This document shows positions 27,264-32,529 of a DNA stretch of 64,000 bases, one piece after another; positions within the stretch are counted from its first letter, which is position 1; each line of letters begins with the position of its first letter. Origin of the DNA: Candidatus Binatia bacterium (lineage in GTDB: Bacteria > Desulfobacterota > Binatia > Bin18). The stretch is taken from contig JAJDZM010000072.1 of the NCBI GenBank assembly GCA_022824615.1, positions 18,343-82,342 on the forward strand. The letters run 5' to 3'. Both the position numbers and the translations under genes were made by a program. Under the pieces are notes generated by a model. The model was not told where the DNA came from. It was given only the letters and a program-made list of their open reading frames with translations, and searched no databases.

Positions 27264-28784
27264 ATGCTTGCGACAGCGGTATCCGGGGCTCTGATTGGGA
27301 TTGATGGCTTGTTGGTAGAGGTCGAGGTCGATGTGGCGCTGGGTTTGCCGCAGTTCACTACCGTCGGTCTGCCTGAGGGGGCTGTCCGAGAGAGCAAAGA
27401 TCGGGTTCGCTCGGCCATCAAGAATTCTGGCTACGAATTTCCCGCTCGCCGTATCACTGTCAATCTCGCTCCTGCGGACGTTAAAAAAGAAGGCGCCGCC
27501 TATGACCTGCCGATTGCCCTCGGCATTCTTGCAGCTGAGGGTTGGCTGACCAAAGAACAGCTTCAATCCTACGCGATCCTGGGCGAGCTCTCACTCGACG
27601 GGCGAGTCAAGCCTGTCCATGGGGCTTTGCCCTTAGCTGTGATGGCACGGGAAAAAGGGCTCAAGGGATTGATTGTGCCCACGGAAAACGCGGCCGAGGC
27701 CGCGGTTGTTGATGAAGTTGCGGTTTTCGGCGTGTCCACGTTGAGTGAAGCCTTTCTGCTGCTCAACGGGGAGCGACCCTTTGACTCGACCGTTGTCGAC
27801 GTTAATACCCTCTTTACCCGGCACTCCGCCTATGAAGTTGATTTTAACGATGTGAAAGGTCAGGAGCACGTTAAGCGCGCTCTCGAAGTCGCGGCCAGTG
27901 GCGGGCATAACCTGCTGTTAGTGGGTCCACCGGGGTCGGGAAAGACCATGCTGGCCAGACGCCTGCCAACCGTGCTGCCCACACTGACCCTGACCGAAGC
28001 GATTGAAACAACCAAGGTCCACAGCGTCGCCGGTAGCCTCAACGGCAAGGCCCTCGTTGCCACGCGGCCCTTCCGCAGCCCGCATCACACCATCTCCGAT
28101 GCCGGTATGATCGGTGGCGGTACGGTGCCCAAACCGGGTGAGGTCTCCCTGGCCCATCACGGCGTGCTCTTTCTGGATGAACTGCCGGAGTTCCGCAAGA
28201 ACGTCCTCGAAGTCCTGCGTCAGCCCCTGGAGGATGCTCGGGTCACGATCTCACGCGCGATCGGGTCCATTACGTATCCGGCGGATATCATGCTGGTTGC
28301 GGCGATGAATCCGTGCAGTTGCGGATTCTTCGGTGACCCGCAGCACGAGTGCACCTGCTCTCCGCAACAGGTCCAGCGCTATCGATCCAGGATTTCCGGC
28401 CCTTTGTTGGATCGCATCGATATTCAGGTCGAAGTCCCGGCGGTCAAGTATAAAGAGCTGAGTGACAAAGCCGCGGGTGAGGACTCGACGACCATTCGGA
28501 CGCGTGTGAACCAGGCGCGTGAAATCCAACTCCGGCGTTTTCAGAAACGGAAAATTTTCTGCAACGCGCAAATGTCCAGCCGGGACATCCGCACGTATTG
28601 TCAGCCCGACGCAGCCGGTGAAAAGCTCCTGGAAAACGCCATGCAGCGCCTGGGGCTGAGCGCCCGCGCCTATACCCGCATCCTCAAAGTCGCCCGCACC
28701 ATTGCCGACCTCGCCGGCGAGGAACACATCACCGGCGCCCATATCGCCCAGGCCATCCAGTACCGGGCCTTGGACCGGGAGTGA
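27264..28784 (+). CDS. comM: YifB/ComM family Mg-chelatase-like AAA+ ATPase
   Basis: [24 protein letters not shown]...[22 protein letters not shown]. Walker A motif [27 protein letters not shown]. 506 aa. Confidence 0.9.
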
Positions 28785-29155
28785 GTGAGGTGCGCATATC
28801 TTGGTTGCCGCGGGCAATCCTTATAGTGCGGATACGCGGCGTCGTGCGACGCTATAATGTATTTTGGTTACCCTGGGCGATACTTGCAGTATTGGGCTGG
28901 TGCATATTCCACGATCATGACAGTGAGTATGCCAGTCGATCCCACGGCCACTACAAACTTCACGAGCATGACGGGGAGTATGCTGATCGATACCACGGCC
29001 ATAGCCGGATAGATGAACTGGAGGACGAACTCTACTTCGGCAGCAGCCGGATGGATAAACTGGAGACTGAACTAAAACGTCACGACCATTATGGGGAATA
29101 TGCCGATGACGACCACAGCCATTCCGAGTATTCCTGGGAAGGCCACGAGCATTAA
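28781..29155 (+). CDS. Membrane-anchored histidine-rich repeat protein
   Basis: One hydrophobic segment ([16 protein letters not shown]), then three copies of a 14-aa unit H-[DE]-H-x-[SG]-E-Y-A-[SD]-x-x-H-[GS]-H, plus a duplicated SR[IM]D[EK]LE[DT]EL unit. Differences between the DNA repeat copies fall largely at third codon positions of the + frame, which supports this frame. The true start may be an internal GTG (VRRYNVFW...). Confidence 0.5.
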
Positions 29156-29213
29156 GCGGCATAAAGCAAGAATAGAGTACAGAGTCACATGTCAAACTCT
29201 TCTACTCGTATAG

Positions 29214-30014
29214 ATGGCAGGTGAAGAGGTGTTGGAGGAGAAACAGAAGCAGTTCTACCGTGACCAACTCCGCTCGGCCCGAGCCGCTGCCCTAGCGGAC
29301 GCCGAGGGGTTCCTAGCCGTCATCCACACGCTTGAGTTGATGGGCCAGCAGATGAAGGGGAAGGTACTTAACCTCGGAAGATATAAAAACAAGTTGACCT
29401 GTGTGGCTGATGATTCTCCGTTGTGTGATGAGACCGCAAGCAAATATCCAGCGTATCACACTACATTTAGCGCTCTATATGACGAACTACGGCGAGCAAG
29501 GAATGATGCCGTGCATCAAGGTGCTTACGCACGGATACTGACCGATCACGCCGTGGACCTCGCAATCATACTTGAGGATGCACTTATGCCCAATTCTGAA
29601 TGCTCTAAAGTTTCGCAGTTCATGGTTCGAGACGTAGTTAAAGCTGAGTGGTGGCACCCAGTCAGTTATGCGCGCCAACAGATATTGAAGCATGGCTTCT
29701 CTTATATCCCCGTCTGGTTTGAGAACGAATGGAGGATGCTTTCAGAATATTCGGTTGCTAAATATCTTCGTGCCTCCCCTGATAAACGAAATGATCGGCT
29801 CGTTAAGACAATTGAAGACGCAGAAGCAGAAAAAGACGGGCTGGACCTACCGACAGTAGAAAAAAAGTATATTGTACCTCCTGGAAAACCCATCTCCTGT
29901 ATATTGGACCGCCTCGACGCAAGTCCGATCCTCGTTGTTGCTCCCAAACGCGAAAATGAACCGGAACGTAAAGACGAACTGGTCGGAATTTTAACAGCGG
30001 CCGATATTTTATGA
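29214..30014 (+). CDS. HEPN-domain (Rx4H) protein fused to a C-terminal CBS-domain pair
   Basis: 266 aa, AT-rich relative to the flanks. YDELRRARNDAVHQGAY contains R-N-D-A-V-H in a helical N-terminal ~130 aa. The C-terminal half has two CBS-like units (VSQFMVRDVVKAEWWHPVSYARQQILKHGFSYIPVW... and ...PISCILDRLDASPILVVAP...ELVGILTAADIL). Confidence 0.6.
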   Translation: MAGEEVLEEKQKQFYRDQLRSARAAALADAEGFLAVIHTLELMGQQMKGKVLNLGRYKNKLTCVADDSPLCDETASKYPAYHTTFSALYDELRRARNDAVHQGAYARILTDHAVDLAIILEDALMPNSECSKVSQFMVRDVVKAEWWHPVSYARQQILKHGFSYIPVWFENEWRMLSEYSVAKYLRASPDKRNDRLVKTIEDAEAEKDGLDLPTVEKKYIVPPGKPISCILDRLDASPILVVAPKRENEPERKDELVGILTAADIL

Positions 30015-30055
30015 AAAAGCGCATGAAGAAGCAGACCCACACCGTTAAGCCGGTG

Positions 30056-31006
30056 TCACGGCGCTGTCTCTCCTTGACTCGCAATCTGCGTGGCAAGCTC
30101 ACGGCTAAGCTTCTGACCCTCAGCAATTTGCTCGCGGGTCATGCGCTGTCGGATTGAGGTCCGCATGACTTCGGCCTCATCGTGTCCCTGCGCGGCGGCG
30201 AGATTGAGCCAGGCATAGCCTTGAACATTATCTTCGGGCACGCCTTTGCCTATGTCGTACAGGGCTCCTAGGAGGGCCTGGGCTTGGGCATCTCCTTGTT
30301 CTGCGGCCTTGCGGTACCAAGTCACAGCTTGGCTGTAGTCCTGAGGCACGCCCTCGCCGCTCGCGTACATGCGTCCTAGGTTGTACTGGGCTGCGACGAA
30401 ACCTTGCTCGGCAGCCCTTCGGTACAAAACCACAGCTTGGACATCATCTTTGGGCACCCCATCCCCATTATCGTACCTGCGTCCTAGGAGGGCCTGGCCT
30501 AGGGCGTCTCCCTGCTCGGCGGCCTTTTGAATCAAAACCAGGGCTTGGCGGTCGTCTTTGGGCACTCCTTGGCCGTCGGCATACATGCTTCCTAGGAATG
30601 CCTGGGCTTCGGCATTTCCTTGTTCTGCGGCCTTCTGGAACCAAGTTGCGGCTTGACGGTCGTCCTGAGGCACACCCCTACCGCTAGTGTACAGAACTCC
30701 TAAGCGGGATTGGGCTATAGGGAAACCCTGTTCCGCGGCCTTACTGTACCAGAACACGGCTTGGCGGTCGTCCCGAGGTACGCCCCTGCCGGTTTCGTAC
30801 AGATTTCCTAGGAGGGTCTGGGCTCCGGCGTTTCCCTGCTCGGCCAACGGTCGCCATTCACGCAAGGCTGTTGCGTAGTCGCCCCGTTCGTATGCTTCAT
30901 ATGCGGAATCAGTCTGGGCTTGGATGCTTGATACAGCTAGGGCTAAAGCCAGGACAAGAGCCGCGGCAGCTATCCGGCTGCCTCGCTTGTGGCGTGGCTG
31001 GACCAT
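30056..31006 (-). CDS. Sel1-repeat (SLR/TPR-like) secreted protein
   Basis: About 7 tandem 36-aa Sel1 repeats (GNAGAQTLLGNLYETGRGVPRDDRQAVFWYSKAAEQG...). The ATG at 31006 gives the signal peptide MVQPRHKRGSRIAAAALVLALALAVSSIQA; the track start is 31090. Confidence 0.85.
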   Translation of the reverse strand: MVQPRHKRGSRIAAAALVLALALAVSSIQAQTDSAYEAYERGDYATALREWRPLAEQGNAGAQTLLGNLYETGRGVPRDDRQAVFWYSKAAEQGFPIAQSRLGVLYTSGRGVPQDDRQAATWFQKAAEQGNAEAQAFLGSMYADGQGVPKDDRQALVLIQKAAEQGDALGQALLGRRYDNGDGVPKDDVQAVVLYRRAAEQGFVAAQYNLGRMYASGEGVPQDYSQAVTWYRKAAEQGDAQAQALLGALYDIGKGVPEDNVQGYAWLNLAAAQGHDEAEVMRTSIRQRMTREQIAEGQKLSRELATQIASQGETAP

Positions 31007-31127
31007 ATTGGAGTCGTCCCAGTAGATAAAAACCTTGTCCATAGCGTCTTCCGCACCAATACTAACGGATATTCCATTACCGTATCCCACACCTCAGCCA
31101 AGCGCTACGTGCCAAATCTGACAAACC

Positions 31128-31142
31128 CGTCTATATTAGACG
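31128..31142. promoter_or_regulatory. Palindrome CGTCTA-TAT-TAGACG upstream of hicB (candidate operator)
   Basis: Perfect 6-bp arms, 28 nt upstream of the hicB ATG. A TAGAAT -10-like hexamer lies at 31148-31153. Confidence 0.3.
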
Positions 31143-31169
31143 CTTGGTAGAATTGATTGAGGCAGCACA

Positions 31170-31505
31170 ATGAGATTTGAGGACTATGCGATCAATATCG
31201 CCCCCATTCCCGCAGAGGAAAGTGGCAGCTATCTGGTGACCCTGCCCGACTTGCCCGGCTGTATCGCGGATGGCGAGACTATCGACACAGCCATAGCAGA
31301 AGCCCGCGACGCCTTCACCGTGTGGGCCATGGCCGAACGGGAAGACAAGGGAGAACTGCCCGTGCCAAAAACCTATAGCGGACAATTCGTGCAACGCCTT
31401 CCTAAGACCTTACATATGCGGCTCGCCAAGCGAGCGGCGAGCGAGGGGGTCAGCCTGAATCAACTGGCCGCGACTCTGCTCGCCCAGGGGCTGGGTCCGA
31501 AATAA
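31170..31505 (+). CDS. hicB: HicB-family antitoxin (RNase H-like fold plus C-terminal RHH)
   Basis: YLVTLPDLPGCIADGETIDTAIAEARDAFTVWAMAEREDKGELPVPKTYSGQFVQRLPKTLHMRLAKRAASEGVSLNQLAATLLAQGL. No hicA ORF is seen on either side. Confidence 0.8.
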   Translation: MRFEDYAINIAPIPAEESGSYLVTLPDLPGCIADGETIDTAIAEARDAFTVWAMAEREDKGELPVPKTYSGQFVQRLPKTLHMRLAKRAASEGVSLNQLAATLLAQGLGPK

Positions 31506-31516
31506 GGGGAAAGCTT

Positions 31517-31666
31517 ATGAACCGCAAAAAGGACGGAGATCAATCAACTGTTGAGTCCGCCAGCAAGGACGGATTGCTTGCATTGCTCGCCACCCTGGGG
31601 CCGGTGGACGACACGTTTCCAGATGTGGACGAGACCTTGCCACCGCTGGACGATACGGAGTTATGA
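31517..31666 (+). CDS. 49-aa ORF resembling only the acidic C-terminal tail of AbrB/VapB-type antitoxins
   Basis: Below the ORF-track size cutoff. MNRKKDGDQSTVESASKDGLLALLATLGPVDDTFPDVDETLPPLDDTEL. The LLA-L-x-P-x-DD-FP-x-x-D motif is typical of antitoxin C-termini. There is no DNA-binding N-domain. Confidence 0.3.
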   Translation: MNRKKDGDQSTVESASKDGLLALLATLGPVDDTFPDVDETLPPLDDTEL

Positions 31667-31725
31667 GCCTTTAGCCGAATGGGTCCATTGAGCTGTTCGT
31701 TTCCACACAGTAAAGGAGGGCGTCT

Positions 31726-32529
31726 ATGCCGTACATCGAAAGGGAAAAGGGAGTGCGGATTCACTACAACCACTATGGAAAGGGATTTCCCCTGGTCTTT
31801 TTACACGGCTTTTCGGCCAACGCCTGGCTCTGGGCGTATCAGGCTCCGATCCTGGCCCATAAATATCACTGCGTTGTCATTGAGGCGCGCGGACACGGGC
31901 TCTCCTCCAAGCCGCTCACGGGCTATTCCATTCCGGACATGGCGGCCGACGATGCCGCCGTCCTGGCCGCTCTGGGCATCGATCGCGCCATTCTGGTCGG
32001 CAACTCGATGGGCGGGATGCGGGCCATGCAGATGAGCCTTGATTATCCGCACCTGGTCGCCGGGAATGTCATCATCAGCAGCGCGACCAACCTGCACCAG
32101 ACCCTGGATACCGCCGAGCTGATTGCCAGCTTTCAGAACGATTACGAGGCCGCCGCGGACAACCTGGTTACCCGCTGCTTCTCGGTCAAGACGCGGGCCG
32201 AGCGACCCGAGGTGTGCCAGATGATTAAGCACAACTTCCTGAACGAGGGCGGTTTTCCGCGCCGGGTGGCCCTGGCCTGTTTGGAAGACCCCAACGGTGT
32301 GTGGCAGTGGGATATCTCAGACCGTTTACAGGAGATTACCCAGCCCACATTGGTCCTGGTCGGCGAGGAAGACCAGGCCACACCGGTCGAGGCTAACCGA
32401 TTTCTGGCTGAGCGGATTCCCGGGGCCGAACTGCGCGTGCTCAAAGAGGTGGGCCACTGCTACGAGATCGAACAACCGCTTGAATTTAACCAGGAGCTGG
32501 AGGAATTTGTCGCGCAGTATGGGCACTGA
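31726..32529 (+). CDS. Alpha/beta-fold hydrolase
   Basis: PLVFLHGFSANAWLW...LVGNSMGG (nucleophile elbow G-x-S-x-G)...VGHCYEIEQP. Confidence 0.8.
   Translation: MPYIEREKGVRIHYNHYGKGFPLVFLHGFSANAWLWAYQAPILAHKYHCVVIEARGHGLSSKPLTGYSIPDMAADDAAVLAALGIDRAILVGNSMGGMRAMQMSLDYPHLVAGNVIISSATNLHQTLDTAELIASFQNDYEAAADNLVTRCFSVKTRAERPEVCQMIKHNFLNEGGFPRRVALACLEDPNGVWQWDISDRLQEITQPTLVLVGEEDQATPVEANRFLAERIPGAELRVLKEVGHCYEIEQPLEFNQELEEFVAQYGH

What the first reader, a model, noticed from the sequence alone, without database searches (positions are those of the whole stretch)
29214..30014. HEPN (Rx4H) RNase-like domain fused to a CBS-domain pair as a candidate ligand-gated toxin or defence effector
Seen: a 266-aa ORF in an AT-richer islet. 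The helical N-terminal ~130 aa contains ELRRARNDAVHQGAY (R-N-x3-H, the HEPN catalytic motif). The C-terminal ~135 aa looks like two CBS units (…FMVRDVVKAEWWHPVSYARQQILKHGFSYIPVW… and …ELVGILTAADIL). Established: HEPN domains are the RNase modules of Cas13, Csm6/Csx1, RnlA, AbiD/F and HEPN-MNT toxins. CBS pairs bind adenosyl ligands (AMP/ATP, SAM, c-di-AMP) and act as allosteric switches. Inference: a HEPN RNase directly gated by a nucleotide-sensing CBS module would be a one-protein sensor-effector. I do not recognise this architecture as a described defence or TA family. No MNT or other obvious antitoxin is adjacent; the neighbours are a His-rich membrane protein, a Sel1-repeat protein and an orphan HicB.
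Basis: partly seen in the sequence, partly recalled or inferred. Interest (0 to 1): 0.7.

Follow-up and report, generated by a model that had tools for sequence, protein, structure and literature searches.

The report
Reverse-order HEPN–CBS single-protein RNase candidate
This gene encodes a probable RNA-cutting (HEPN-type) domain fused to a nucleotide-sensing CBS pair; it behaves like a mobile, fast-evolving stand-alone gene, and it is an uncharacterised, reverse-order relative of a CBS+HEPN anti-phage protein (DS-11) that others have already validated.

Summary
Window 29214-30014 (+) is a real 266-aa ORF in a GC dip (49% against 58%).

The C-terminal half is a bona fide CBS pair (PDB profile E 7.6e-8; Foldseek E 5.8e-6).

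The N-terminal 128 aa is an all-helical domain. Its R96-N97-x3-H101 motif is invariant or nearly so (N97 at least 90%) across 182 aligned homologs. It meets the published HEPN criteria:
- polar residue after the R;
- invariant Glu in helix 2;
- insert between helices 2 and 3.

It also aligns in register with the HEPN domain of the validated DS-11 family (hhalign Prob 63-67%, z about 7 against shuffles). Pfam hmmscan and Foldseek do not detect HEPN.

The family is large (861 clusters at 50% identity), spread over at least 10 phyla but sparse. It has lower GC than its flanks in 77 of 78 loci, is sometimes plasmid-borne, and has no conserved partner gene. In Binatia it sits in a conserved slot and evolves much faster than its neighbours.

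The novelty claim fails. HEPN-CBS fusions were noted in 2013, and DS-11, a one-protein CBS+HEPN defence system, was validated in 2025-26. This family has the reverse domain order and a distinct HEPN subtype, so it is a new variant of a known kind. Function is inferred, not shown.

The parts
29214..30014 (+). Whole ORF, 266 aa: N-terminal HEPN-like domain followed by a C-terminal CBS pair. Stop codon at 30012-30014.
   Evidence: ORF; 253 homologs; AF2 pLDDT 91, pTM 0.80; dN/dS below 1
29214..29597 (+). HEPN-like all-helical domain, aa 1-128. H1 is 9-28, H2 is 33-48, the insert helices are 54-65 and 73-77, H3 is 85-98 and H4 is 103-123.
   Evidence: secondary structure, pLDDT 90.7; published HEPN criteria; hhalign against the DS-11 HEPN family, Prob 63-67%, z about 7
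29334..29336 (+). E41, an invariant acidic residue in helix 2 and the predicted auxiliary active-site residue.
   Evidence: 47 of 47; at least 90% of 135; criterion
29376..29384 (+). G55-R-Y57 in the insert helix. It aligns with the conserved FGEY of the DS-11-family HEPN.
   Evidence: Y57 invariant
29499..29516 (+). R96-N97-D-A-V-H101, the Rx4H motif and predicted catalytic residues, at the end of H3 and in the H3-H4 loop.
   Evidence: invariant R and H; N in 47 of 47 and at least 90% of 135
29532..29549 (+). R107...H112, a second conserved R-x4-H in helix 4 (R107 invariant, H112 at least 90%). It is a family-specific signature of unknown role.
29598..29783 (+). CBS1, aa 129-190. It contains F162, the equivalent of DS-11 Y157, and a non-canonical S177..S180 at the ribose-motif position.
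29697..29699 (+). F162, an aromatic residue (F in 45, Y in 2 of 47) that aligns with DS-11 Y157. Mutating Y157 to Ala abolished defence in DS-11.
   Evidence: PMC13092281
29784..30011 (+). CBS2, aa 191-266.
29784..29924 (+). Hypervariable patch, aa 191-237 (linker and first half of CBS2). 20 of 45 aligned positions differ from the closest homolog P0002, and dN/dS is about 1.0 against the closest genomic relative L009.
29985..30005 (+). G258-I-L-T261-A-A-D264, the canonical CBS ribose-binding motif (G and D invariant, T in 42 of 47).
28781..31505 (.). Variable accessory islet between a comM/yifB-type Mg-chelatase-like gene and an abhydrolase gene. It holds a His-rich TM protein, HEPN-CBS, an exported Sel1 protein and an orphan HicB. 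This is context and is not shown to be functionally linked.

Best explanation
The gene encodes a stand-alone, cytoplasmic, ligand-gated endoribonuclease of the HEPN type.

SHOWN:
- a C-terminal Bateman (CBS-pair) module with one canonical nucleotide-ribose motif (G258-x-x-T-x-x-D264) and a conserved aromatic residue (F162) at the position of DS-11's essential Y157;
- an N-terminal four-helix-core domain with invariant E41, R96, N97 and H101 placed as in HEPN RNases;
- no conserved protein or RNA partner;
- a mobile, fast-evolving, low-GC gene.

INFERRED:
- As in other HEPN enzymes, two protomers pair their R-N-x3-H motifs into a composite, metal-independent RNase site.
- The CBS pairs also dimerise and hold the nuclease off or on according to an adenine-nucleotide-type ligand.
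- A change in that ligand during phage infection or severe stress activates RNA cleavage and causes growth arrest (abortive infection).
- This makes the protein a functional analogue of the validated CBS+HEPN defence protein DS-11 and of CARF-HEPN effectors, but built in the opposite domain order from a different HEPN subtype, most simply by an independent fusion.
For: Domains:
- CBS pair.
- HEPN criteria met.
- In-register profile similarity to the DS-11-family HEPN: score 32 against a shuffled null of 12.8 +/- 2.7, maximum 21.5 of 200.
- F162 aligns with DS-11 Y157, and the T261/D264 motif is conserved.

Precedent:
- DS-11 is a one-protein CBS+HEPN system in which HEPN R/H and CBS Y157 mutants lose defence.
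- The 2013 survey predicted ligand-regulated RNA degradation by HEPN-CBS fusions.

Stand-alone unit:
- No conserved neighbour in 81 loci; the largest cluster covers 6 loci and reflects synteny.
- No conserved small ORF within 450 nt.
- No Rfam hit and no non-coding repeat array.

Conflict-gene behaviour:
- 89 hits in 185,579 species across at least 10 phyla.
- 14 plasmids, 4 of them conjugative.
- On the Acidovorax plasmid it lies between HipA TA modules and after a PLD-like protein.
- GC is below the flanks in 77 of 78 loci, mean -8.7 points, p about 2e-27 against control genes.
- In the conserved Binatia slot, flanks are 93-98% identical while this gene is 59-87%.
- dN/dS is 0.38 against 0.03-0.10 for backbone genes. 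Against the more distant relatives dS is about 1.0, compared with 0.13-0.64 for nearly all flanking genes (one flank in L010 also reaches 1.0). This indicates allele exchange.
- The gene is mosaic, with a hypervariable CBS2 patch.
- The slot also carries HigB/HigA-like, HicB, MazE-like, NYN and AAA_14 genes in relatives.
- Some neighbours closely match the PD-T4-6 kinase, Mrr and GmrSD.
Against: - No library HMM detects HEPN (Pfam, NCBIfam, PADLOC, PHROGs). The control shows hmmscan also misses the validated DS-11 HEPN.
- Foldseek of a confident N-domain model finds no HEPN structure in the PDB or BFVD (best E above 1).
- The hhalign probability is only 63-67%, and the signal is concentrated around the motif, which could in principle be convergent.
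- Neighbourhoods are heterogeneous. Many are housekeeping genes, and defence enrichment was not tested against a background.
- Homologs are nearly absent from phage and viral collections.
- No activity, oligomer or ligand data exist for this family.
- Defence by DS-11 cannot be transferred by homology, because the two are not orthologous.
Confidence: 0.55

Rival explanations
1. A physiological, not anti-phage, regulator. The protein is a nucleotide- or energy-state-gated RNase (responding to ATP/AMP, SAM, c-di-AMP, Ap4A or similar) that adjusts RNA stability or induces dormancy under starvation or stress. This is what Anantharaman et al. proposed for HEPN-CBS fusions.
For: The domain evidence is the same as for the main explanation. 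The 2013 proposal of ligand-regulated RNA stability applies. Many neighbours are ordinary metabolic or housekeeping genes. The gene keeps its position next to comM across Binatia genomes. It is nearly absent from phages.
Against: Sparse, patchy phyletic distribution, low GC in 77 of 78 loci, plasmid carriage, allele replacement and dN/dS 4-10 times that of the backbone, and paralogs within one genome (L010 and L054) are all atypical of a core physiological regulator. The only experimentally tested CBS+HEPN protein is an anti-phage system.
Confidence: 0.25
2. The helical N-domain is not a nuclease. The protein is a CBS-type regulatory or adaptor protein (JGI labels some members 'predicted transcriptional regulator'), and the conserved R/N/H residues bind a ligand, a partner or nucleic acid without catalysis.
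For: No HMM library or fold search recognises HEPN. JGI names are listed. A single Rx4H is expected 0.38 times per protein by chance. Some HEPN domains are non-catalytic binders.
Against: According to the 2013 survey, non-catalytic HEPNs typically lose the Rx4-6H motif. Here R and H are invariant and N is at least 90% conserved across 182 aligned homologs, and E41 is also conserved. Motif placement and topology match HEPN. Profile similarity to a catalytically validated HEPN family is about 7 sd above the shuffled null. No DNA-binding domain was detected.
Confidence: 0.1
3. The protein is the toxin or effector of a multi-gene system whose partner was missed. Candidates are an unrecognised antitoxin, or the adjacent Sel1-repeat or trypsin-like protease protein acting as sensor or activator.
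For: Sel1 and/or trypsin-like protease genes lie directly next to the gene in about 10 loci. A 4-nt overlap occurs upstream in two different phyla (L063, L036). The 2013 survey lists Sel1 associations for the AbiU2 and DUF4145 HEPN families. A MazE/AbrB-like ORF sits just upstream in L001. HicB lies nearby in the window.
Against: No partner is conserved. The largest neighbour cluster spans 6 of 81 loci and small-ORF clusters span at most 3 loci. In the window the Sel1 gene is convergent and its product has a signal or TM segment, as do nearly all protease and Sel1 neighbours, whereas HEPN-CBS is cytoplasmic. L002 and L010 lack Sel1, and L009 has a HigBA-like pair in its place.
Confidence: 0.07

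Closest known systems
DS-11 (E. coli WP_000257686.1), the one-protein CBS+HEPN anti-phage system from DefensePredictor (Science 2026, PMC13092281)
   Same: A single polypeptide combines a CBS pair with a HEPN-type R-N-D-x-x-H motif. There is no partner gene. The aromatic residue at the Y157 position (F162) and the CBS2 G-x-x-T-x-x-D motif are conserved. The HEPN profiles align in register from the GxY helix to the RNDxxH motif.
   Different: The domain order is reversed: DS-11 is a ~125-aa N-terminal region, then CBS (134-241), then HEPN (287-362), whereas this protein is HEPN (1-128) then CBS (129-266). The protein is shorter (266 against 365 aa) and lacks the extra N-terminal region. Similarity is only at superfamily level (CBS hhalign Prob 30%, HEPN 63-67%). 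This family adds invariant G103, R107 and H112. Defence has not been tested.
HEPN-CBS(-HD) fusions of the Swt1/Abi2 HEPN clade (alr3009; Pelobacter gi 118580987) in Anantharaman et al. 2013 (PMC3710099)
   Same: The same concept applies: HEPN RNase fused to nucleotide-sensing CBS domains, predicted to couple soluble ligands to RNA degradation.
   Different: Those examples include HD phosphohydrolase domains in some cases and were classified in the Swt1/Abi2 clade. Their sequences could not be retrieved here, so direct membership was not tested. No Pfam, NCBIfam or PADLOC model covers the present family.
CARF-HEPN effectors of type III CRISPR systems (Csm6/Csx1)
   Same: The logic is shared: a dimeric ligand-sensing domain allosterically controls a dimeric HEPN RNase within one polypeptide. 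This rests on established knowledge and on the survey.
   Different: The sensor is a CBS pair, not CARF. There is no CRISPR-Cas or cyclase context. The ligand is unknown.
HEPN-MNT (HepT-MntA) toxin-antitoxin modules and Abi-type HEPN proteins (AbiD/F, AbiU2, ApeA, DUF4145)
   Same: An R-N-x3-H type HEPN motif and mobile, conflict-associated behaviour. Marginal single-sequence hits to HEPN_Apea, RiboL-PSP-HEPN and DUF4145. Occasional Sel1 neighbours, as reported for AbiU2 and DUF4145.
   Different: No MNT or any other conserved antitoxin. No hit to the PADLOC Abi models. Control is predicted to be in cis through the fused CBS pair.

Membership tests
HEPN superfamily | Conserved Rx4-6H motif with a polar residue (N, D or H) after the R | tested here: met
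   R96-N97-x3-H101. R and H are invariant in 47 plus 135 homologs. N is invariant in 47 and at least 90% conserved in 135. Criterion from PMC3710099.
HEPN superfamily | [quoted passage not shown] | tested here: met
   AF2 models (pLDDT 91 and 90.7) give H1 9-28, H2 33-48, insert 49-84 with two short helices, H3 85-98 ending in R96-N97, H101 in the loop, and H4 103-123. This rests on secondary-structure order only. The 3-D superposition was not done.
HEPN superfamily | Conserved acidic residue in helix 2 near the active site | tested here: met
   E41 is invariant in 47 and at least 90% conserved in 135. Its spatial proximity to R96 and H101 was not checked because no coordinates were available.
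HEPN superfamily | Statistically supported sequence or profile similarity to a recognised HEPN family | tested here: inconclusive
   hmmscan finds no reproducible hit, but the validated DS-11 HEPN also gets none. hhalign against the DS-11-family HEPN profile gives Prob 63-67%, E 5e-5 and score 32, against a shuffled null of 12.8 +/- 2.7 with a maximum of 21.5.
HEPN superfamily | Structural similarity to solved HEPN domains | tested here: not met
HEPN superfamily | Metal-independent endoribonuclease activity dependent on the R and H | not testable with these tools
   Requires biochemistry.
CBS pair (Bateman module, PF00571 x2) | Two tandem CBS motifs forming the Bateman fold | tested here: met
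   Family profile against PDB MJ1225, E 7.6e-8 over positions 124-253. PF00571 is hit in 47 of 47 members. Foldseek to MJ0922, DarB, CbpB, AcuB and CBSX2 gives E 5.8e-6 to 1e-3 with target TM 0.62-0.73.
CBS pair (Bateman module, PF00571 x2) | Ribose-binding G-h-h-T/S-x-x-D motif that supports adenosyl-ligand binding | tested here: met
   In CBS2, G258 and D264 are invariant and T261 is present in 42 of 47. CBS1 has S177..S180 instead, so probably only one canonical site exists. Actual binding was not tested.
DS-11 (DefensePredictor CBS+HEPN defence protein) | One-protein system with a CBS pair and a HEPN domain, without partner genes | tested here: met
DS-11 (DefensePredictor CBS+HEPN defence protein) | Architecture of N-terminal region, then CBS, then C-terminal HEPN (SAV2148-like), with family-level sequence homology | tested here: not met
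   The order is reversed. hhalign of the full family against DS-11 aligns only the CBS region (Prob 30%). The HEPN similarity is at superfamily level.
DS-11 (DefensePredictor CBS+HEPN defence protein) | Anti-phage protection dependent on the HEPN R/H and on the CBS aromatic residue | not testable with these tools
   The equivalent residues (R96, H101, F162) are conserved. Phage assays are required.
HEPN-MNT toxin-antitoxin | Adjacent minimal nucleotidyltransferase (MNT) antitoxin gene | tested here: not met
   No conserved neighbour or small ORF in 81 loci, and no NTase among the neighbours.
CARF-HEPN (Csm6/Csx1) | CARF sensor domain and type III CRISPR or cyclase context | tested here: not met
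   The sensor is a CBS pair. There are no cas or cyclase neighbours.

The most novel reading that the evidence does not exclude
This is an independently evolved HEPN-then-CBS immune sensor-effector family. The rapidly diversifying, recombining surface of CBS2 (aa 191-237) would be a trigger-recognition surface, for example for a phage protein or a phage-made nucleotide, rather than the CBS pair serving only as a generic adenylate sensor. The recurrent Sel1 or trypsin-protease neighbours would form an optional second layer of input. If so, CBS pairs have been recruited at least twice, convergently, as sensor modules for HEPN suicide RNases.
Probability: 0.15. Interest if true: 0.7.

Novelty: new variant of a known kind. 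Interest (0 to 1): 0.45.

Why it matters
If the inference is right, CBS pairs, which are among the most common small-molecule sensor modules in biology, have been coupled to HEPN RNases at least twice in opposite orientations. That would make 'CBS-gated HEPN' a general design principle, alongside CARF-HEPN and SAVED-effector systems. The ligand of DS-11 is still unknown. A second, compact (about 255 aa), widely distributed and sequence-diverse family gives an independent handle for finding it by comparing pockets and screening ligands. It would also help explain how a constitutively encoded toxin is kept silent without an antitoxin. The family has no Pfam, NCBIfam or PADLOC model at present, so current defence annotation pipelines cannot see it. 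It occurs mostly in poorly studied phyla (Binatia, Acidobacteriota, Chloroflexota, Planctomycetota, Cyanobacteria). Because the kind has already been predicted and one example validated, the advance is incremental and not conceptual.

Tried and rejected
1. Library HMM detection of HEPN failed. This covered Pfam on the window protein, on 47 plus 135 members and on consensus sequences, plus NCBIfam, PADLOC and PHROGs. Only marginal, non-reproducible hits appeared (HEPN_Apea in 2, RiboL-PSP in 1, DUF4145 in 2 plus 2). I do not count this as evidence against HEPN, because the validated DS-11 HEPN also scored nothing.
2. Phmmer and a family profile against PDB sequences found nothing for the N-domain.
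3. Foldseek of the full model returned only CBS pairs. Foldseek of the N-domain alone returned no significant match in the PDB or BFVD.
4. I rejected direct membership in the DS-11 family, because the order is reversed and similarity is only at superfamily level.
5. I rejected a conserved antitoxin or partner, a small ORF, an RNA partner and a riboswitch.
6. I rejected phage carriage as the rule: there were no GenBank phage hits and 1 IMG/VR contig out of 2.9 million, and that contig looks like a defence or accessory region with XRE regulators, an HSDR_N nuclease and a kinase.
7. The promoter and terminator scan gave nothing above background, so the transcription unit is unresolved.
8. The Sel1 and trypsin-protease association was followed up. 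These partners carry signal or TM segments and are present in only a minority of loci, so I did not adopt them as part of the system.
9. I could not obtain the sequence of E. coli WP_001532511.1 (263 aa, 'CBS domain-containing protein', DefensePredictor log-odds 5.0), so I could not test whether it belongs to this family.
10. I could not see the distant tail of the 861 N-domain hits, because only the top 150 are listed.
Full report
OBSERVATION

The ORF at 29214-30014 (+) is real: ATG start, 266 aa. It lies in a GC dip. The gene is 49.2% GC, against 58.1% for the window and about 59.6% for the flanking comM-like and abhydrolase genes. The sequence ELRRARNDAVHQGAYAR is at aa 91-107.

A single R-x4-H is not unusual by chance. 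The protein has 253 homologs in the 90%-clustered database. In an alignment of 47 of them, down to 38% identity, these residues are invariant: R96, N97, A99, H101, G103, A106, R107, E41, E121, W147, R154, P166, W173, R192, G258 and D264. In 135 further representatives of 50%-identity clusters, R, H, G103 and R107 remain invariant and N97 and E41 stay at or above 90%.

CBS PAIR

The window sequence alone falls below the Pfam cut-off (E 0.007). However:
- all 47 members hit PF00571 (best 1.1e-8);
- the family profile matches the CBS pair of MJ1225 at E 7.6e-8 over positions 124-253;
- a confident AF2 model (pLDDT 91, pTM 0.80) matches CBS-pair structures (MJ0922, DarB, CbpB, AcuB, CBSX2, MgtE) at E down to 5.8e-6 with target TM 0.62-0.73.

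CBS2 keeps the canonical ribose motif G258-x-x-T261-x-x-D264. CBS1 has S177..S180 in its place.

HEPN

No HMM library recognises the N-domain. The PDB sequence profile finds nothing. Foldseek of a confident N-domain model (pLDDT 90.7) finds only generic helical bundles.

Three lines of evidence nevertheless support HEPN.

1. The domain meets every descriptive criterion in Anantharaman et al. 2013:
   - a four-helix core with an insert between H2 and H3;
   - the Rx4H motif at the end of H3 and in the H3-H4 loop (H3 is 85-98, H101 is in the loop, H4 is 103-123);
   - N after the R;
   - an invariant Glu (E41) in H2.
2. A profile built from 119 homologs of the HEPN domain of the validated DS-11 protein aligns with the N-domain profile at Prob 63-67%, E 5e-5 and score 32. 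Two motifs align in register: LGxY with FGEY, and F..Ly..lR.ARNDAvHQ with F..Ld.VR.IRNDVMHF.
3. The null for that score is far lower: 200 column-shuffled versions gave 12.8 +/- 2.7 (maximum 21.5), and the reversed alignment gave 13.6.

As a control, hmmscan also gives no Pfam hit for the DS-11 HEPN segment, so the hmmscan negative is uninformative.

I conclude that the N-domain is probably a divergent HEPN domain. Homology is not proven, because the structural test was not met.

FAMILY AND DISTRIBUTION

The N-domain profile finds 861 clusters at 50% identity (658 at E of 1e-10 or below) among 1.84 billion representatives. Almost all are about 250-270 aa with the same architecture. A few carry N-terminal extensions, for example P0142 with DUF6946.

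Among 185,579 species genomes, 89 encode a relative. They span:
- Binatia (the window is 87% identical to a Ca. Binatia MAG, L009);
- many Acidobacteriota;
- Cyanobacteria, Chloroflexota, Planctomycetota and Myxococcota;
- Spirochaetia, Nitrospirota, Gemmatimonadota, Verrucomicrobiota and Deinococcota;
- Methylomirabilota, Entotheonella and Proteobacteria.

Fourteen plasmids carry homologs (Burkholderia, Cupriavidus, Acidovorax, Deinococcus), and 4 of them are conjugative. On the Acidovorax plasmid the gene lies between two HipA TA modules and directly after a PLD-like protein. GenBank phages have none. IMG/VR has one contig, where the gene sits among XRE regulators, an HSDR_N-type nuclease and a kinase.

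CONTEXT

Clustering all ORFs in 81 loci shows no conserved neighbour. The largest neighbour cluster covers 6 loci and reflects Binatia synteny. No small ORF (30-130 aa) within 450 nt is conserved beyond 3 syntenic loci. There is no Rfam hit and no tRNA, and the only repeat arrays are the Sel1 coding repeats apart from one trivial 19-nt, 1.9-copy match. The gene therefore behaves as a stand-alone unit.

Immediate neighbours are heterogeneous:
- trypsin-like proteases (7);
- kinases (3);
- XRE HTH (3);
- Mrr (2) and GmrSD (2);
- Sel1 (2);
- housekeeping genes.

PADLOC matches the kinases to PD-T4-6 at E down to 1e-72. I did not compute a background rate, so I claim no enrichment.

EVOLUTIONARY BEHAVIOUR

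In 77 of 78 loci the gene has lower GC than its flanks (mean -8.7 points). Control genes of similar size average +0.4 (Mann-Whitney p about 2e-27).

In Binatia relatives the gene occupies the same slot downstream of a comM/yifB-type gene and upstream of an abhydrolase. The rest of the slot varies:
- His-rich protein;
- Sel1;
- HicB;
- HigB/HigA-like pair;
- MazE-like ORF;
- NYN;
- AAA_14/DUF4143;
- DUF4238;
- ion channel.

Backbone genes are 93-98% identical to the window, whereas the HEPN-CBS gene is 87, 67, 60, 59 and 62% identical. Against L009, dN/dS is 0.38 compared with 0.03-0.10 for backbone genes, at comparable dS. Against L003, L001 and L010, dS is about 1.0 compared with 0.13-0.64 for nearly all flanks; the luciferase-like gene in L010 is the one exception at 1.02. 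That pattern implies old or exchanged alleles.

Variation is concentrated in aa 191-237, and the H3-motif-H4 core is the most conserved part. The window/L009 pair is mosaic:
- aa 1-190: dN 0.018, dS 0.093;
- aa 191-237: dN 0.213, dS 0.206 (ratio about 1.0);
- aa 238-266: dS 0.88.

These patterns fit a conflict or accessory gene subject to recombination and diversification. The segments are short and no formal test was run.

WHAT IS KNOWN

Anantharaman et al. 2013 already reported HEPN domains fused to CBS, with or without HD. They placed them in the Swt1/Abi2 clade and proposed ligand-regulated RNA degradation.

DefensePredictor (bioRxiv 2025, Science 2026) validated DS-11 (WP_000257686.1, 365 aa) as a one-protein CBS+HEPN anti-phage system. 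R330A, H335A and Y157A each abolish defence, and AF3 predicts a dimer binding ATP.

DS-11 has the order N-terminal region, CBS (134-241), HEPN (287-362). The window protein has HEPN (1-128) then CBS (129-266). hhalign of the family against DS-11 aligns only the CBS part (Prob 30%). In that alignment DS-11 Y157 corresponds to F162, which is F in 45 and Y in 2 of 47 members. No other paper uses the terms HEPN-CBS or CBS-HEPN.

MECHANISM (INFERRED)

A homodimeric HEPN RNase is held in check in cis by its CBS pair. A change in an adenine-nucleotide-type ligand during infection or stress activates RNA cleavage and causes growth arrest. This is the DS-11 and CARF-HEPN logic, realised by a probably independent fusion in the opposite order.

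My probability estimates:
- HEPN-type RNase with a CBS sensor: about 0.75-0.8;
- stand-alone conflict or defence effector: about 0.55;
- physiological stress RNase: about 0.25;
- non-catalytic regulator: about 0.1;
- partner-dependent system: about 0.07.

VERDICT

It is an uncharacterised, unannotated, reverse-order variant of a kind that has been predicted and, in one case, validated. Interest is moderate (0.45).

Noticed in passing
window 27264-32529; loci L001, L002, L003, L009, L010: The slot between a comM/yifB-type Mg-chelatase-like gene and an abhydrolase gene is a variable accessory hotspot in Ca. Binatia relatives. Besides HEPN-CBS it holds different combinations of HigB(Gp49)/HigA-like, MazE-like, HicB, NYN, AAA_14/DUF4143, DUF4238, Sel1 and ion-channel genes. 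The backbone genes stay 93-98% identical.
   Followed up: partly
window 30056-31090 (-); L037:261-1022, L063:6226-7998, L036:5965-7971, L032:1773-3701, L083:8837-10408, L017, L020, L033, L065: Sel1-repeat and/or trypsin-like protease genes, nearly all with an N-terminal signal or TM segment, lie directly next to family members in about 10 loci. They overlap the focal gene by 4 nt upstream in two different phyla, and in L063 the neighbour is a Sel1-trypsin fusion. The 2013 HEPN survey also lists Sel1 links for AbiU2 and DUF4145. The meaning is unclear, because these partners look exported while HEPN-CBS is cytoplasmic.
   Followed up: partly
window 28781-29155 (+): A 124-aa His/Asp/Glu/Tyr-rich protein with one TM-like segment starts 4 nt before the comM-like stop codon (overlap). 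It is 97% identical in L009 (dS only 0.07, below the backbone) and about 66-74% identical in L001. It matches no Pfam, NCBIfam, PADLOC or PHROG family. It may bind metal.
   Followed up: partly
window 31170-31505 (+): Orphan HicB-type antitoxin (HicB_lk_antitox plus a HicB/RHH C-terminus) with no HicA ORF. Only 80 nt separate it from the Sel1 gene. It is 91% identical in L009, and L003 has a 44-aa fragment.
   Followed up: partly
window 29532-29549 (aa 107-112): A second conserved R-x4-H (R107 invariant, H112 at least 90%) lies in helix 4, immediately after the canonical motif. It gives the family signature ARNDAxHQGxxARxLTxHA and is absent from the DS-11 family.
   Followed up: no
window 29784-30011 against L009:8571-8792: The gene is mosaic relative to its closest relative. 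The 5' two-thirds are nearly identical (dS 0.09, lower than the flanking genes). The 3' third (CBS2) is highly diverged (dN/dS about 1 for aa 191-237, dS 0.88 for aa 238-266), which suggests recombination within the gene.
   Followed up: partly
L010 and L054 (both from OY282457.1, Ca. Binatia chromosome): One genome carries two divergent paralogs of the family, 62% and 36% identical to the window protein.
   Followed up: no
P0142 (481 aa), P0137 (378 aa), P0122, P0161 and P0216 (536-557 aa): Longer family members carry N-terminal extensions ahead of the HEPN-like and CBS domains. P0142 has a full DUF6946 domain (E 3.8e-69) and P0137 has a weak DUF429 hit. The extensions in the others match no family.
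   Followed up: partly
DefensePredictor Table S10 (PMC13092281), E. coli NZ_PQCK01000004.1:1534841-1535632: WP_001532511.1 is a 263-aa 'CBS domain-containing protein' that the model predicts to be defensive (log-odds 5.0). Its size matches this family, but the sequence was not obtainable here, so membership is untested.
   Followed up: no
L089 (Acidovorax temperans plasmid pEP1, NZ_CP117194.1:104404-119162): The plasmid copy of the family lies directly downstream of a 960-aa phospholipase-D-like protein. Two HTH+HipA toxin-antitoxin modules flank it.
   Followed up: no
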